Assembly (NCBI RefSeq): GCF_009834535.1
Contig: NC_045696.1
Coordinates: 22,384,001-22,448,000, forward strand
Length of the DNA: 64,000 bases
Origin: Camelus ferus
Lineage: Eukaryota
Direction of reading: 5' to 3'
Each line of letters opens with the position of its first letter. Position 1 is the first letter of the stretch. Under the pieces are notes generated by a model. It saw only the letters and a program-made list of their open reading frames with translations, did not search any database and had not been told where the DNA came from. A program made the translations under genes and the position numbers. Shown here in pieces: positions 4,857-56,555 of this stretch.

Positions 4857-5022
4857 CTTTTTTTTTTTTTTTTAAGACAGTGTTATTTTAGAGCAGTTTT
4901 AGGTTTACAGCAAAATTGAGGGGAAAGTACAGAGGGTTCCCGTATACTCCCTGTCCCCACACATGCATAGCCTCTCCTGTTATCAACATCAGCCAACGGA
5001 ATGGTACTCTTTTTTTTTTTTT
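4857..5022 (-). mobile_element. Ancient L1 (L1MC-like) 3' end fragment
   Basis: poly-T then TTTTAGAGCAGTTTTAGGTTTACAGCAAAATTGAG; same family as 11438-11912. Confidence 0.8.
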
Positions 5023-11437: not shown

Positions 11438-11912
11438 CTTCTTCTTCTTTTTTTTTTTTTTTTAATAGACTTTATTCTTTTAGAGCAGTTTCAGGTTCAC
11501 AACAGAATTGAGCAGAAAATCAGAGAGTTCACATATAGCCCTCCCCACACACACATACATACTCCCCTACCCTCAACATCCCTCATCAGTGTGGCGTATT
11601 TGGTACAATTGATGAACCAACATGGGCACGCTATTATCAACCAAAGTCTGTAGTTTACATTTGGATTCACTCTTGATGTTGTACATTCTATGGGTTTTGA
11701 CAAATACATAATGACATGTAGCCATCACTATAGTATCATACAGAATAATTTCATTGCCCTAAAAATCCCTTGTGCTCCATCTACTCATTCCTCCCTCCCT
11801 CCCTCCCTCCCCCCAGATCCCTGGAAACCACGATCTTTTTATTGTTTCTGTAGCTGTGCCTTTTCCAGAATGTCATTTGGTTGGAATTGTATAGTTTGTA
11901 GCCTTTTCAGAC
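11438..11912 (-). mobile_element. Ancient L1 (L1MC-like) 3' end
   Basis: T-tail plus L1MC-type 3'UTR; perfect TSD tcagcccagctactctt at 11421-11437 and 11913-11929. Confidence 0.9.
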
Positions 11913-14245: not shown

Positions 14246-15348
14246 GCCTCACCTGGTACGTACGATGGACTTACGAGCTCTTCATTCCCTTCTTCCTTTT
14301 TCTCCCTGGCCTATCAGTTATTTATATGCTGGAATTTGGAATGGAATGGGGACACAGCTTTAGATTTTGCATCTATTTGTCACATGATGTTTAAATACAG
14401 CAATGAACCTTACTTCAAGGAGTAAAGCTGAAGCACATGTCATTTCCTAATAGTGAAAGAGAGTAGGCCGACAAGAACAGCCCCAGATCAGAGAGGAGTT
14501 GTATGCTCTCAGAGGAGGAATGTTGTGGGAGTAACTGGCCCAATGATCTCCCAGCCTGTGAACAGCATTCAAGATTTCCTCATCTTAAGGGAAAAAAATA
14601 AAAATCATTTGTTTCATTAGCAAAGTAAACATGGCGACTAATGTCCCTAAGGCAGCAGTTTTATAAATGTATCACACAGAATGAAACAATGGCTTAAGAA
14701 GGTTATGTTGTTATTTTTGAAAACAGTCACCCAGTGGGTTTGGCCTCCGGGAATACTGTCCACACATTTTAAAAATGTACACTGGCCAATCAGTTTTGAC
14801 ACCTCCATCCTGCCCTACTGGTTTGCCCTCACTTCACTTCATTTAGCATCCTGTCTCTGTGTCAGTCATTTACATTTATTTCTAAAGTTGTGGCTGCAAG
14901 ACATGAGACTTCTTACTGAAAATGAGCAATTCAGCAATTGACTCGTAAAGATGTACTTAACTGCTTACAATTTTTAAAATACTGAGATAAAGAAAGTCAG
15001 AAAATGCTGAACTTTTAAAGCATCAACCGATTGGCCATTGTTGTGGAGTTTGGCTAAGTGTGTTAATATAGTGAGTTATATCAATAACAAATGATGGACA
15101 GGGATAAATGATGGATGGGATAACTCTCAAAGTAGGGGAAGGAATTCTTGGTGGAAGAATCTTCAAAAGCATAGAGATAAAAAGGAGTGTTCAGCGATGT
15201 TAAGAATGTAGTTGGAATGCAAAGTGGGCAAAGAAGCTGGTACCATTGGTTGTGCCTGCATGTAAAATAGTCCTTTATGCGGTTCTAAGGAGTTGGGATA
15301 GTGTCCTATGTGTGGCAGCCACTGGATGTTTTTAAATAGGATTGTGTA

Positions 15349-15480
15349 GGTAGGATGGTAGAGCACATGCTTAGCATCCATGAGGTCCTGAGTTCAATCC
15401 CCAGTACCTCCATCAAAATAAGCAAACTTAACTACTTCCCCTGCAAAAAAAATAATAAAAAGTGAAATAAAATTAAAAAA
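15349..15480 (+). mobile_element. tRNA-derived SINE (Vic-1-like), A box damaged or truncated
   Basis: ATGCTTAGCATCCATGAGGTCCTGAGTTCAATCCCCAGTACC; TSD taaataggattgtgta at 15333-15348 and 15481-15496. Confidence 0.92.
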
Positions 15481-16149
15481 TAAATAGGATTGTGTAATCT
15501 TTATATTTGTATTGGCATTGGTCAGTCTTCCCACCTGCCTCTCCACCGACGTTGCCTCTGTGCCTGCTGTAAGTGTCAGTAAGGACGTCCAGACTTCCAG
15601 GCCCAAGGACCGTTCACGGACGCCAGCTTCAGTGTGGAGGGCGTAGAGCCCTGCCTCTGTAGCAACACGGCATTTAGGATGCGTAGCTGGAGGAGGACCT
15701 TTGTAGTCTGCATAGAAAGAGCATGAGGACCGTCCTGGAGCCTCAGCAATAGACCACAAGGTTGCTGCGGTTTTATAAGACAGAAGAGTAATGTGCTCAT
15801 AGCACTGATCCTCATTGGCAGTTGTGAGGATTCTGTTCCATGAGAATGTTATGAATTGAATACCGTGTCAAGTGGAACCAACACAAAGTTGGTTCTTTAA
15901 TAGAAAGCCAAAACTTTGTTAATTCAGAGAATTTAAAGTCATCATCTGTTACTCGTTACAGACCTATCACTGTAAGTGAAGACGCTGAGGACACGTCATG
16001 GATACATGTGAGTGATGGAGGTCATGGTAGACTCCCCAGCAGCAGCTCCCATTTTCTTGGGAACAGCAGTGTCGTAAGGGGAGTTGACCTCAGCCCGAAA
16101 ACTGGGCATATCTCATCTAAAGAAGTGCTGTTTTCCTTTCATGTGCCTG

Positions 16150-31059: not shown

Positions 31060-31520
31060 AAGCATTGAGAACAAATGATCGAGAATCTACCTGTGCTAGG
31101 CTAGATCCTATGGCTGGATGTTTTCCATACACCATTTCTGGTCTTCAGAACAGCCCTGCAAAATAAATATTAGTCTCCTTATTTTCCAGTGGAAGAAAAT
31201 GAAACTCAGAATTCCTCACCCAAGAACAGACAGCTGGCAAGTGGCAGTGCTTGGGTTAGAATGACTGTCAGCATCGTAATCATTAAGGTTGCTGACATTT
31301 ATTGTGTACACACTGATGAGCACATCTGGGAGGAGCACCTTATATGTGTTATTTTAACTCCCATAATGACTCCTTGAGCTACTCATATTATACTCATTTT
31401 ATATATGAAGAAAGTGAATTTTGAAGGTTAAGTCACTGCATGAAGATCATACAATGGGTACGCAGCAGCTCTGGAATTTTAATTGGAACTTACAGGGCTC
31501 TGATGCCTTCACCCATTTCA
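31060..31520 (-). mobile_element. Two MIR fragments
   Basis: CCTTATTTTCCAGTGGAAGAAAATGAAACTCAG; CTCATTTTATATATGAAGAAAGTG...GGTTAAGTCACT. Confidence 0.6.
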
Positions 31521-32720
31521 CTAGGGCTCTAAAAACAGATTTCTTCTGTCCTGCCCTATGCTTGTCTCAGCTGACATGCTTCTGTCAAGCATTTGACAGG
31601 CTAAGTTCCACTTCCCTCTGTTTCCCCCAAGGGTCTGACTACAGCTGCTCTCTTACAGGAACTGCTAACAGCTCTAGTTTAAGCAATGTGCAAAATAACC
31701 GATGCGCATAAAACCTCTTCCTCCAAGGCCTCTCTGTGGTTCATTTTCTGAAATAACAAGACCAAGAGGTGGCCCTGCAGGGTCAACAGATGAAACGTTG
31801 GTAACTTCAGTGCCTCAGTGAAGCAACGGGCAAGATTTAATGGAAAATAGGCACATTTTATGGTAAATCAGTTCCATTTGTGAGAATTCCTCAAATGGTG
31901 TCTAAGGAGCCATGACAAGCTGGAAAACTAGATGGACGATTGATTCAGATGTCTGCTGTTATATTTTCCTTCCTTTGGACACAGCATGTGTGTTTCTTAA
32001 GTAGCAGGGCTATATATAGATCCTCAGGCTTCAATGTAGGGAGAAAGAATTTCACATGTAGGTTGCATATCAACTTTCTGGGTTTTTTCAAAACATCTTT
32101 GACATTTCTGCATTCAGAGAAGAACCTGTGAACAATACAATGGAGGCAAGCAACAGTCTCGTTTCTGTTTCTAGAGTTAATAACAAGGTGCCAGATGGTT
32201 TTCTTATTTTCTCAAAACACCTAGCCTCCCTTTTACATTCAACCCTTGAACTGTCTCATCTAGATAGAAAGCATGACTTTTGTGAGAGTTCCTTAAAGTA
32301 ATTGTAAAATCTGTTAGTTAGCTCCTAAATAGCAAAACGATGCAGTGACATGAATCTACAGCACACAAAGGTACAGTTTTAATACACACTTATGTATGCA
32401 AACTAAAGAGGAAAGTGCAGTGATGGAAATGGAATCCATTTTTACAATAACTGTACTGTCGTGTAAAGCTCTTGACTTCTTTGAACAGTTGCTATGTCTG
32501 TGAATTGGGGTTATGTCTTTTAAGGATTGCAAACATTTTTCTAGGTCCTAAGATCTTTGTGTATTCTATTCTACACAAATACAAGATCCCACTACAGATG
32601 TTACCCAAAGAGAAAAGATGAAGAATTCCTGATTATCATCATCTGCTAATTTATGAAAAAAAATTTTAATCCCCAAGCCCCCACCCTGTTCCTTTGCAGG
32701 TCTCTTATGTAGTTTATGGC

Positions 32721-33800
32721 TTTTTTTTTTTTCTGTTTTGAATTGATGTATTGACATGTTTCTTTTACAGAATCATATGTTTCCAATTGAGGTAGAGTTT
32801 CATGTAAGACATGACATCCTACACTTGTACCATAGTGTGATTCCCAATGTTTAAAGGTGATATTCCATTGATTGATATTATCAACTGTTGGATCTATTGC
32901 CATTGGATCTATCATGGTATACAATATATATCCTTGGAGCTGACTGTATACCTCACAGTTTGTACCTCCCCATCCCCCACCTTCACCCTGCCCCTCCCCC
33001 TTCCCTCTCCCCACCGGTAACCATTAGTTCCTTCTCTACATCTGGGAGTCTGTTTCCTTTCCGGGATAGTCACGCAGTGGTTGCCTTTTTTAGATTCCAC
33101 ATGGAAGTGGTATCTTAGAGGACTTGTCTTTGTCTGCCTGACTTCTTTCACTTACCATAATGCCCTCTAAAAACATTCATGCTCTGCACCGGAAGGTGAC
33201 ACAACATTTTCAATCCAATGTCTTTCAATTCAAGAGCAAACCAACAAACTCCCCATTTTGAAAAGGGGGCAGAGGAAATGAACAGACCTCCCTCCAAAAG
33301 GGGAAATGCAGATGGCCCACAGGAACACGAAAAATCGCTCCACATCGCTCCCATCAGGGAAGTGCAAATCCAAATCACCATGAGATACCATCTCCCAGCT
33401 ATAAGAATGGCCATTCTCCCAAGGAACACACACACACACACACAAACATATGCTGCCAAGCATGTGGATAAAAGGGAACCGTTGTACAGTGTGGGTGGGA
33501 GAGCAAATTGATGCAGCCACTATGCAAAACGGTATGGAGGTTTCTCCAAAACCTCATCATTGAACCCCCCTCAGGCCCATGCGTTCCACTCCTCGGCATA
33601 GAGTCAAGACAAAGACATTGATTCCAAAAGCATTTGTGGAAGAAACCAAAGCTCAAGTCTTGCTTGCATTGTCTGGTTCCTGACGGGGAGGTGATTCGGT
33701 TTCTTCATTGATTTCTGCTTGAAGGAGGTACGGGGCGTTGAACCTGGGACCTCTTGGGTGCTAAGCATGTGCTTTACCACTTGAGCTATACCCTTCCCCC
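32721..33800 (-). mobile_element. Hyper-diverged composite of SINE + L1 fragments with a fresh poly(A)
   Basis: T12 (32721-32732); minus L1 3'UTR to ~33185; plus L1 3' tip ~33186-33240; plus ORF2 piece (IREVQIQITMRYHL) to ~33640; minus SINE ~33660-33800. Confidence 0.75.
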
Positions 33801-33811
33801 ACAACTGGCTT

Positions 33812-34290
33812 ACTTTTCTTCCTTTCTTCCTTTCTTCCTTCTCTCTTTCTTTCTTTGTTTTTTCTGAGTTATAGTCATTTTACAATGTTGTGTCAAATTC
33901 CAGTATAGAGCACAATTTTTCATTTATGAACATATGTATATTCATTGTCACATTTTTTTTTTGCTGTGAGCCACCACAAGATCTTGTATATATTTCCCTG
34001 TGCTATACAGTATAATCTTGTTTATCTATTCTATATATACCTGTCAGTATCTACAAATTTTGAACTCTCAGTCTGTCCCTTCCCACCTCCCGCCCCCTTG
34101 GCAACCACAAGTTTGTATTCTATGTCTATGAGTCTGTTTCTGTCTTGTATTTATGTTCTTCTTTTTTTCTTTTGTTAGATTCCGCATATGAGTGATCTCA
34201 TATGGTATTTTTCTTTCTTTTTCTGGCTTACTTCACTTAGAATGACATTCTCCAGGAACATCCATGTTGCTGCAAATGGTGTTATGTTCT
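33812..34290 (-). mobile_element. Young 5'-truncated L1 3' end
   Basis: (TTC/TTTC) tail then GAGTTATAGTCATTTTACAATGTTGTGTCAAATTCC; near-identical to the 6776 and 43846 copies. Confidence 0.93.
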
Positions 34291-34689: not shown

Positions 34690-34800
34690 TTAGGTCATGT
34701 ACTTAACTGTGGTAGGGCATACGTAAAGAAGGCCTTACCTTTATTTTACAGATGAAGAGACTGAGGTTCAGAGTGGTTAAATATCTCAAAAATTACACTC
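34690..34800 (-). mobile_element. MIR fragment
   Basis: TTATTTTACAGATGAAGAGACTGAGGTTCAGAGTGGTTAAAT. Confidence 0.7.
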
Positions 34801-35587: not shown

Positions 35588-35690
35588 AAAAAATGTAGAT
35601 GGCTTCATGAATTTGCATGTCGTCTTGTGCAGGGACCATGCTAATCTTTGTATCGTTCCAGTTTAGTATATGTGCTGCCCAAGTGAGCAC
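35588..35690 (-). pseudogene. RNU6: U6 snRNA retropseudogene (full length, fused to L1)
   Basis: Reverse complement GTGCTCACTTGGGCAGCACATATACTAAACTGGAACGATACAAAGATTAGCATGGTCCCTGCACAAGACGACATGCAAATTCATGAAGCCATCTACATTTTTT matches U6 with CpG decay; the ACAGAGA box is damaged. Confidence 0.96.
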
Positions 35691-43820: not shown

Positions 43821-44773
43821 CTCTTTTTTCATATATAAACTTTTTTTATTGAGTTATAGTCATTTTACAATGTTGTGTCAAATTCCAGTGTAGAGCACAG
43901 CTTTTCAGTTATACATGAACATACCTACATTCATTGTCACATTCTCTTTTGCTGTGAGCCACCACAAGATCCTGTATATATTTCCCTGTGCTACACAGTA
44001 CAATCTTGTTTATCTATTCTACATTTTGAAATCCCAGTCCCTTCCCACCCCCTGTCTCCCTGGCAACCACAAGTTTGTATGCTATGTCTATGAGTCTGTT
44101 TCTGTTTTGTATTTTTGTTTTTGTTTTTGTTTTTTTTTTTTTTAGATTCCGCATATGAGCGATCTCATACGGTATTTTTCTTTCTCTTTCTGGCTTACTT
44201 CACTTAGAATGACATTCTCCAGTAACATCCATGTTGCTGCAAATGGCGTTATGTTGTCAGTTTTTATGGCTGAATAGTATTCCACTGTATAAATATACCA
44301 CTTCCTCTTTATCCAGTCATCTGTCGATGGACATTTAGGCTGTTTCCACGTCTTGGCTATTGTAAATAGTGCTGCTATGAACATTGGGGTGCAGGTGTCC
44401 TTTTGAAGTAGGGTTCCTTCTGGATATATGCCCAGGAGCGGGATTACTGGGTCATAGGGTAAGTCTATTCCTAGTCTTTTGAGGATTCTCCATACTGTTT
44501 TCCACAGTGGCTGCACCAAACTGCATTCCCACCAGCAGTGTAGGAGGGTTCCCTTTTCTCCACAGCCTCTCCAGCATTTGTCATTTGTGGATTTTTGAAT
44601 GATGGCCATTCTGACTGGTGTGAGGTGATACCTCATCGTAGTTTTGATTTGTATTTCTCTGATAATTAGTGATATTGAGCATTTTTTCATGTGCCTATTG
44701 ATCATTTGTATTTCTTCCTTGGAGAATTGCTTGTTTAGGTCTTCTGCCCATTTTTGGATTGGGTTGTTTGTTT
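43821..44773 (-). mobile_element. Young 5'-truncated L1 with an open ORF2 C-terminus
   Basis: ORF 44142-44705 contains [21 protein letters not shown] ttgagaaaattatttt at 43805-43820 and 44774-44789. Confidence 0.97.
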
Positions 44774-56140: not shown

Positions 56141-56555
56141 GCAGGATGCAGTTGCTAAAGCAAATCAAACAAAAGACGGCTTGCCTGTCACTTTAGGCAA
56201 GCATATTCTTGGTCTTGACATAGGAGATGCAGTTCTTAAGGAAGCTGCTCAGATTCTGTGAACACTGCGTACAGAAGAGCTCAGAGAGCTACAGACAGAA
56301 ATTAACGAGGCCATAGCAGCTGTTCAGGTGATTACTGCCGATCCAAAGCAGAGCACAGACTGGGGAAAGTTGGAAGATGAACATTTTAGGATTTCAGCAT
56401 CTCACCTACTTAGTACAGTTAGAAACCATGTACACTCTGGCCATGTGTTTGGAAATGTCATGTTTTTAAGGGAAGAATCCCATAAAACTGACTATGTTCT
56501 AGAGATTTGCCATCATTGCTTTTTCTTTAATAAAGTGGGGAAAGTGAAAAATATA
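56141..56555 (+). pseudogene. RTRAF: 5'-truncated processed pseudogene of RTRAF (C14orf166/CGI-99/hCLE)
   Basis: Frame from 56142: QDAVAKANQTKDGLPVTLGKHILGLDIGDAVLKEAAQIL*TLRTEELRELQTEINEAIAAVQVITADPK, matching the RTRAF C-terminus; in-frame TGA at 56259, 1-bp deletion ~56349, native stop ..GKVGR* at 56378-56380, 3'UTR with AATAAA at 56529-56534. Confidence 0.93.

What the first reader, a model, noticed from the sequence alone, without database searches (positions are those of the whole stretch)
32721..33800. SINE-headed, AT-to-GC hyper-mutated L1 mosaic with a fresh poly(A): candidate composite retroposon
Seen: on the minus strand the block starts at a SINE 5' end (GGGGAAGGGTATAGCTCAAGTGG; A box and B box GGTTCAACGCC intact). 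It continues through an antisense L1 ORF2 piece, an antisense L1 3' tip and a sense L1 3'UTR. It ends in a scrambled old tail followed by a pure A12. All parts are far more diverged than same-family copies in this window, mostly A/T to G/C. For example AAAAGGGGGCAGAGGAAATGAACAGACCTCCCTCC here corresponds to AAAAATGGGCAGAAGACCTAAACAAGCAATTCTCC at 44.7 kb (minus). The SINE's A tail has become AGGAACCAGACAATGCAAGC, and several CpGs are present. A lineage-specific SINE should not look older than its neighbours. Inference: the mosaic evolved elsewhere, in a hypermutable or GC-biased gene-conversion compartment (subtelomere, satellite, amplicon), and was inserted here as one unit, possibly as a member of an undescribed non-autonomous composite family. 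Caveats: the TSD is weak (tggctt at 32717 and 33806), and internal T4-T5 runs argue against simple Pol III read-through.
Basis: partly seen in the sequence, partly recalled or inferred. Interest (0 to 1): 0.72.

Follow-up and report, generated by a model that had tools for sequence, protein, structure and literature searches.

The report
GC-shifted SINE-L1 mosaic in camel DNA
A 1.1-kb patch of old jumping-gene pieces has had about a quarter of its A and T letters turned into G or C while the repeat next door has not; it probably evolved elsewhere and was copied in, but no second copy was found, so a new mobile family is not shown.

Summary
The block is a tRNA-type SINE followed by three L1 pieces and A12. 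At positions where sibling copies agree, 90 of 341 A/T sites became G/C (26%) against 58 of 1,280 in other copies (4.5%); G/C-to-A/T change is normal. The direction survives non-camel L1 outgroups. The rate stays high across 900 bp and drops to 2 of 90 in the L1 50 bp away. Seven runs from three studies, not marked as possible sources, hold 98-99% of the sampled words, so it is no assembly error. This is the signature of long, strong GC-biased gene conversion. Where it happened is open. Best reading (0.5): evolved elsewhere and inserted as an L1-made retrocopy. But the 6-bp duplication is weak, a rival eroded duplication around the SINE alone fits as well, old elements here also carry pure T16, and eight T runs argue against Pol III read-through. 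In-situ conversion stays at 0.3. No second copy was found, but no camelid genome could be searched, so the family claim (0.25) is untested.

The parts
32717..32722 (-). 3' copy of the candidate 6-bp target-site duplication AAGCCA (two A shared with the poly(A))
   Evidence: chance 0.006-0.02
32721..32732 (-). pure A12 tail; a variant signal AATACA starts 20 bases upstream (32752)
32733..32940 (-). AT-rich 3' segment, probably the decayed end of the L1 3'UTR with one or two L1-like termini; assignment weak
   Evidence: 33% GC, 0 CpG
32940..33190 (-). L1 ORF2 end and 3'UTR, sense to the SINE (piece C); W>S 31, S>W 6 in 147 columns
33171..33250 (+). short L1 3' tip with eroded A tail, antisense to the SINE (piece A); W>S 7, S>W 3 in 39 columns
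33240..33635 (+). L1 ORF2 C-terminal piece, antisense to the SINE (piece B), with an added (CA)n at about 33426-33445; W>S 42, S>W 9 in 227 columns
33636..33660 (.). unassigned spacer between SINE tail and piece B
   Evidence: no match elsewhere in the window
33654..33674 (-). possible eroded 3' copy of a SINE-only target-site duplication (rival reading); 5' copy at 33802-33819
   Evidence: chance 0.06-0.09
33660..33800 (-). tRNA-derived SINE with intact A and B boxes and a GC-shifted tail (family name vic-1 is recalled, not tested against a consensus); W>S 10, S>W 2 in 79 columns
   Evidence: sibling at 365-436 called tRNA-like by ARAGORN and Rfam
33801..33805 (-). five extra bases (GTTGT) between the 6-bp duplication and the SINE start; an ordinary SINE at 53.5 kb also has five extra bases
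33806..33811 (-). 5' copy of the candidate 6-bp target-site duplication
33812..34290 (-). neighbouring 5'-truncated L1 with a (GAAA)-like tail; unshifted control, not part of the block
   Evidence: W>S:S>W 2:3, 3:2, 3:3 per 150 bp

Best explanation
The block is a retrocopy of a sequence that spent a long time under strong GC-biased gene conversion somewhere else. Step 1 (shown in outline): a source locus was built from nested insertions: an older L1 (pieces B and C, arranged as a 5'-inverted, twin-primed insertion with a gap of roughly 150-180 bases), a short L1 tip at the inversion joint, and a SINE in front. Step 2 (shown): after the SINE had arrived, all four pieces gained G/C at 20-30% of their A/T sites while G/C-to-A/T change stayed normal, the signature of biased conversion. 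Step 3 (inferred): this happened in a compartment of lasting recombination or concerted evolution (multi-kb satellite, amplicon, pseudoautosomal or ribosomal spacer). Step 4 (inferred): a polyadenylated transcript, most likely Pol II and cut near a variant AATACA signal, was reverse transcribed by L1 proteins into an A-rich site just behind an existing L1, leaving A12 and a short duplication. Why the copy starts at the SINE's first base is unexplained: a Pol II start at the SINE, a switch to the short Pol III transcript of the same source, or a stop at the G run are all possible. The copy here is probably inert.
For: W>S 90/341 against 58/1,280; S>W 20/151 against 74/593. Direction holds against three non-camel L1 contigs: 31:12 in 236 columns, controls 4:16 and 8:20. 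All four pieces are shifted, including the lineage-specific SINE. The rate is 0.16-0.42 in six 150-bp bins with no fall toward either end, highest in the leftmost bin, then 2/90 in the L1 next door (SINE 10/50 against 2/90, p 0.0006). A 15-base A/T run lies in the 400 bases left of the block, and long A/T runs cover 8-10% of the left flank against 2% of the block. AAGCCA brackets the unit (chance 0.006-0.02). Twelve intact A would survive the block's own rate with probability 0.03. The window is 39% GC and none of the other L1 or SINE copies tallied shows a comparable shift. Camelids have multi-kb satellite monomers, several GC-rich, and duplicated pseudogene-rich blocks (PMC13751797, section 14 and Table S3).
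Against: The duplication is only 6 bp and the cut site GT/AAGCCA fits the L1 motif TT/AAAA poorly (motif as in PMC13174262). A rival SINE-only duplication scores 7.5, about ten times likelier if real than by chance. Pure T16 tails occur on old elements in this window. Eight runs of 4-5 T, the first 170 bases from the start, mostly flanked by G or C, argue against Pol III making the whole RNA, which removes the simplest reason for the exact SINE start. The neighbouring L1 may have arrived after the shift; the 410 bases beyond it are 43% GC with few long A/T runs. No source or sibling was found. The best RNA holders after two whole-stretch runs hold shares equal to their overall genome coverage, so no near-identical, abundantly transcribed source is visible.
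Confidence: 0.5

Rival explanations
1. Assembled and shifted in place. The L1 pieces and the SINE inserted here one after another; a long-lived local recombination hotspot, or ectopic conversion from a GC-shifted duplicate, then rewrote about 1-1.5 kb; the unshifted L1 at 33812-34290 arrived afterwards.
For: Eroded SINE-only duplication abutting the SINE start; it explains the exact SINE start and the T runs without any transcript. Pure long T runs exist on old elements. The last 200 bases look less shifted and the DNA beyond the neighbouring L1 is somewhat GC-rich. Localised conversion episodes are common in mammals (PMC12290510, passages; PMC2631073, passages).
Against: A quarter of A/T sites changed needs a very long or very strong episode in a 39% GC interstitial region; episodes are described as short-lived. 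No hotspot-shaped peak. The 6-bp bracket and the A12 at the very edge become coincidences. A 15-base A/T run survives in the left flank.
Confidence: 0.3
2. Imported as DNA, not through RNA: a piece of a GC-shifted satellite or amplicon was copied into a break or was templated during an L1 insertion.
For: Explains the sharp edges, the T runs and the weak duplication.
Against: Both ends fall on transcript-like landmarks (SINE start, A12), which a DNA fragment has no reason to respect.
Confidence: 0.12
3. The changes arose in RNA or during repeated reverse transcription (A-to-I editing or an error-prone lineage), not by meiotic conversion.
For: W>S transversions are frequent (37 of 90 against 14 of 58, p 0.04) and the minus strand gains G more than C (58:32, p 0.008) in the unmasked count.
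Against: Both effects lose significance when columns near gaps are masked (p 0.19 and 0.17). A>G and T>C are about equal on the two strands, unlike editing; A>C and T>G are not editing products (established knowledge).
Confidence: 0.05
4. Artefact: assembly error, or an old L1 subfamily compared with A-rich younger copies.
For: Piece B shares some bases with the older copy at 27.5 kb, so part of its distance is subfamily age.
Against: 14 of 24 listed runs hold 0.98-0.99 of the words, 7 of them (3 studies, two organism labels) not marked as possible sources. The bias holds where old, young and non-camel L1 agree and in the SINE. The block is further from the camel L1 at 44 kb (0.66) than a foreign L1 is (0.79).
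Confidence: 0.03

Closest known systems
GC-biased gene conversion in the mouse pseudoautosomal Fxy gene and in human accelerated regions (PMC2631073, passages read)
   Same: Large excess of W>S change in a bounded stretch with little rise in other classes.
   Different: There the sequence sits in the recombining region; here it sits in an AT-rich interstitial site beside an unshifted repeat, and it is repeat debris, not a gene.
LAVA and SVA composite non-autonomous retrotransposons of hominoids (PMC5174737, PMC4432496; search listing and start of abstract only)
   Same: A mosaic of older SINE and L1 pieces, some antisense, ending in poly(A), that would need L1 proteins to move.
   Different: No VNTR, no hexamer head; a sense tRNA-type SINE at the front; strong GC shift; and no evidence yet of more than one copy.
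Alu/LINE-1 and U6/LINE-1 chimeric insertions by template switch or RNA ligation (PMC13174262, passages read)
   Same: Full-length, sense small-RNA element at the 5' end of an L1 3' part under one duplication.
   Different: In chimeras both partners are fresh and of the same age; here all parts are equally and heavily GC-shifted, so they were joined in DNA long before any such insertion.
vic-1, the simple tRNA-derived SINE of camels (SINEBase, PMC3531059, passages read; Lin et al. 2001 seen only as a reference entry)
   Same: tRNA-like head with A and B boxes; three siblings in the window.
   Different: vic-1 is head and tail only; this unit is 1.07 kb. The family name was not checked against a consensus.
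Camelid multi-kb satellites and pseudogene-rich duplicated blocks (PMC13751797; passages, section 14, Table S3)
   Same: Candidate kind of source: long monomers, several GC-rich; one begins with sequence that looks L1-derived by eye.
   Different: No match shown: only the first 400 letters of each monomer were readable, four short motifs were absent from them, and the monomers are from alpaca.

Membership tests
GC-biased gene conversion tract | W>S excess polarised by outgroups | tested here: met
   90/341 against 58/1,280; 31:12 with foreign L1
GC-biased gene conversion tract | GC-neutral changes raised much less than W>S | tested here: met
   1.7-2.5-fold against about 6-fold
GC-biased gene conversion tract | lies in, or comes from, a region of high recombination or concerted evolution | not testable with these tools
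   no camelid genome or map held
L1-mobilised retrocopy | 3' poly(A) | tested here: met
   A12 at 32721-32732; not proof of youth
L1-mobilised retrocopy | target-site duplication around the whole unit | tested here: inconclusive
   6 bp, chance 0.006-0.02; rival SINE-only duplication, chance 0.06-0.09
L1-mobilised retrocopy | L1 endonuclease motif TT/AAAA at the cut | tested here: inconclusive
   GT/AAGCCA; partial fit, in an A-rich tail
L1-mobilised retrocopy | empty orthologous site or identified parent locus | not testable with these tools
   no orthologous mammalian DNA on hand
Composite non-autonomous retroposon family (SVA/LAVA kind) | mosaic of pre-existing repeats without an intact coding frame | tested here: met
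   longest frames 101-123 codons, no Pfam match for the three tested
Composite non-autonomous retroposon family (SVA/LAVA kind) | many dispersed copies sharing the joints, each with its own duplication | not testable with these tools
   0 further copies in the 64-kb window, earlier notes, metagenome, viral and prokaryote contigs, protein sets; these do not hold camelid genomes, and even the block's own frames were not found in the protein sets
Composite non-autonomous retroposon family (SVA/LAVA kind) | central VNTR (SVA, LAVA, PVA, FVA proper) | tested here: not met
   only a 20-base (CA)n; every other part but two short stretches maps to SINE or L1
SINE family (SINEBase definition) | Pol III promoter head | tested here: met
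   A and B boxes intact
SINE family (SINEBase definition) | whole unit under 1 kb and made by Pol III | tested here: not met
   1.07 kb; eight T4-T5 runs, the first at 33629
SINE family (SINEBase definition) | [quoted passage not shown] | not testable with these tools
   no genome held
SINE/L1 chimeric insertion (template switch) | both partners young and unshifted at the time of insertion | tested here: not met
   SINE and all L1 pieces share the shift

The most novel reading that the evidence does not exclude
The block is one member of an undescribed camelid family of SINE-headed, L1-mobilised composite retroposons whose master gene lives in a compartment under extreme GC-biased conversion, so that its dispersed copies are dated snapshots of that compartment. 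It would be an SVA/LAVA-like composite outside primates, with a different head and a different origin.
Probability: 0.25. Interest if true: 0.7.

Novelty: new variant of a known kind. Interest (0 to 1): 0.45.

Why it matters
Whichever reading is right, a neutral kilobase with a quarter of its A/T sites converted is an extreme case of GC-biased conversion, and it shows that repeat age read from divergence can be badly wrong. If imported, copies like this would point to a fast-converting compartment in camels that assemblies may still lack, and would let its rate be dated. If it is a family, it would be a composite retroposon outside primates. If in situ, it would be an unusually strong, sharply bounded conversion tract in AT-rich DNA. 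One BLAST against camelid assemblies decides between these.

Tried and rejected
No whole genome was held, and read depth, loose ends and empty alleles were not obtained, so copy number and polymorphism stay open. Searches for other copies, all negative and all weak because the collections hold little or no camelid DNA: earlier notes by sequence, words and place; a 20-base pattern in metagenome contigs, 2 hits, both bacterial-looking chance matches of 22-24 bases; a 17-base SINE pattern in viral contigs, 20 hits of at most 24 bases, 4 of the 8 scanned lying in phage tRNA genes; a 22-base joint pattern, 1 hit inside a bacterial reading frame with no further likeness and 0 viral hits; protein searches with two frames of the block gave only generic L1 fragments (110 hits, at most 71% over short parts; 1 hit; 150 of 189 listed, at most 58%; top hits inspected). 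L1 relatives in viral contigs: none; in prokaryote assemblies six contaminant contigs, three used as outgroups. Small word shares of runs X17-X20 equal their overall genome coverage and are no evidence of expression. Strand asymmetry of the changes: not robust. Folding of the SINE head: no better than shuffles (z 0.35). A host gene: none found among 24 long frames and 3 crude exon guesses. Polarising the unique flanks with MIR-like copies failed for lack of copies. A duplication around the block plus the neighbouring L1 (3' transduction) was sought and not found. Ten literature searches found no report of such an element; Repbase and Dfam could not be consulted, most subscription papers are missing, and the satellite paper's slide supplement and the rest of each monomer were unreadable, so the element or its source may be on record.

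Full report
Setting. The window is mammalian DNA of 39% GC rich in L1 and tRNA-type SINE pieces. The same notes place the window about 22 Mb from a chromosome-end satellite, so the site is interstitial. No whole genome was held.

Anatomy. On the minus strand: five extra bases, a SINE (33800-33660) with intact A and B boxes, a spacer of about 25 bases, an antisense L1 ORF2 piece B (33635-33240), an antisense L1 3' tip A (33250-33171), a sense L1 ORF2 end and 3'UTR C (33190-32940), 200 AT-rich bases, and A12. Against the L1 at 44 kb, B covers 44772-44419 and C starts at 44241: the order and orientation of a 5'-inverted, twin-primed L1 with a gap of roughly 150-180 bases (inference from established L1 biology). 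The last 200 bases gave no significant alignment to 5 of 6 L1 ends in the window and a borderline one to the sixth; the last 60 resemble an L1 terminus weakly.

The shift is real. Counting only columns where at least two other copies agree, the block has 91 W>S and 28 S>W changes in 474 columns; the other copies have 74 and 88 in 2,156. As rates: 90 of 341 A/T sites against 58 of 1,280; 20 of 151 G/C sites against 74 of 593; GC-neutral changes 1.7 to 2.5 times higher. Masking columns near gaps leaves 77 of 311 against 52 of 1,160. The direction is not an effect of subfamily age: it holds where an old and a young camel L1 agree (40:13) and where non-camel L1 contigs agree as well (31:12; controls 4:16 and 8:20). 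All four pieces are shifted, including the SINE. This pattern is that of GC-biased gene conversion as described for Fxy (PMC2631073, passages). Editing or RT error fits poorly: strand asymmetry and the excess of transversions vanish on masking.

Not an assembly error. Of 24 runs listed, 14 hold 0.98-0.99 of the 192 sampled words of 32000-33850; 7 are marked as possible sources, the other 7 come from 3 studies and two organism labels. Two RNA runs hold 0.95-0.97 of the whole stretch, flanks included, which says nothing specific about the block; four further runs hold shares equal to their genome coverage.

The edges. W>S rates in six 150-bp bins are 0.42, 0.22, 0.33, 0.16, 0.30 and 0.20: uneven (p 0.03) but without a peak or a fall toward the ends. 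The L1 that begins 50 bases to the right has 2 of 90 (p 0.0006 against the SINE). On the left nothing could be polarised; long A/T runs cover 8-10% of the flank and 2% of the block. Against a sharp edge: the last 200 bases of the block look less shifted (7.7% run cover, no CpG), and the DNA beyond the right-hand L1 is 43% GC; that L1 could have arrived later.

The duplication is ambiguous. AAGCCA brackets the whole unit (chance 0.006-0.02 under the strict test; 0.2-0.4 under a plain local-alignment test). Five extra bases before the SINE also occur at an ordinary copy. But the 18 bases that abut the SINE start also align with 33654-33674, just behind the SINE tail (score 7.5; chance 0.06-0.09); a true, eroded SINE duplication would reach that score in 36-81% of trials. 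The two signals cancel. A12 would survive the block's rate with probability 0.03, yet two old elements in the window carry pure T16.

Which polymerase. Eight runs of 4-5 T lie on the SINE strand, the first 170 bases in, most flanked by G or C. By established knowledge these stop Pol III; my search for a paper on read-through gave one general review (listing only). A full-length RNA would be Pol II, and a variant AATACA lies 20 bases before the A12. The exact SINE start then needs its own explanation, which counts for the in-situ reading.

Other copies. None in the window, in earlier notes, or in metagenome, viral, prokaryote and protein collections. These hold little camelid DNA and did not even return the block's own frames, so the blank is weak. 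Read depth and an empty site were not obtained. One argument for a family is inference only: an element met in a small sample of the genome (20 windows noted so far) is more likely to belong to a numerous kind. One against a young, active family: no RNA run holds the block-sized share (0.58) that a near-identical transcribed source would give.

Verdict on mechanism. Import as an L1-made retrocopy from a GC-converting compartment 0.5; in-situ or ectopic conversion 0.3; DNA-level import 0.12; RNA-level hypermutation 0.05; artefact 0.03. Shown: anatomy, bias, polarity, reality of the sequence, unshifted neighbour. Inferred: the compartment, the transcript, the single insertion.

Comparison with what is known. 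It would work like LAVA or SVA (mosaic of old repeats moved by L1; PMC5174737, PMC4432496, listing and abstract starts) but has no VNTR and no shown copies, so it is not filed there. It is not a SINE by the SINEBase definition (PMC3531059, passages), nor a fresh SINE/L1 chimera (PMC13174262, passages). Three camelid repeat papers (PMC8605555, PMC6675863, PMC6726744; passages) show nothing like it in the passages seen. The alpaca satellite paper (PMC13751797; passages, section 14, Table S3 cut to 400 letters per monomer) shows that suitable source compartments exist but gave no match. Localised conversion episodes are common in rodents (PMC12290510, passages). Ten searches found no report of this element; Repbase and Dfam were not available.

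Scores. Interest 0.45: a solid and unusual observation whose most interesting reading (family, 0.25, interest 0.7) is untested but decidable with one genome search. Novelty: new variant of a known kind.

Noticed in passing
window 35589-35690 (-): Full-length U6 snRNA copy (Rfam 73.6 bits) directly followed, on the same strand, by an L1 3' tip at about 35580-35470: looks like a U6/L1 chimeric insertion.
   Followed up: no
window 56262-56370 (+): Fragment matching the C-terminal part of Pfam RLL (RTRAF/C14orf166), E 2e-9; probably the 3' end of a processed pseudogene.
   Followed up: no
window 32705-32722 and 33806-33819: Both flanks of the block resemble short L1 words: AGCCATAAA occurs in L1 just upstream of where the neighbouring L1 is truncated, and AAGTAAGCCAG occurs inside it. 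Probably chance; unexplained.
   Followed up: no
window 4858-4970 and 11448-11560: Two old elements, 79% alike, each with a pure T16 tail next to a CT-rich microsatellite.
   Followed up: partly
window 15335-15495 (+): 5'-truncated SINE with a clean 15-base duplication, a control for what a young insertion looks like here.
   Followed up: partly
L023-L028: Six short contigs in bacterial reference assemblies are mammalian L1 fragments, that is, contamination.
   Followed up: partly
window 34725-34800, 31170-31240, 31390-31460: Short repeats that look like MIR cores by recall; too few and too decayed to polarise.
   Followed up: partly
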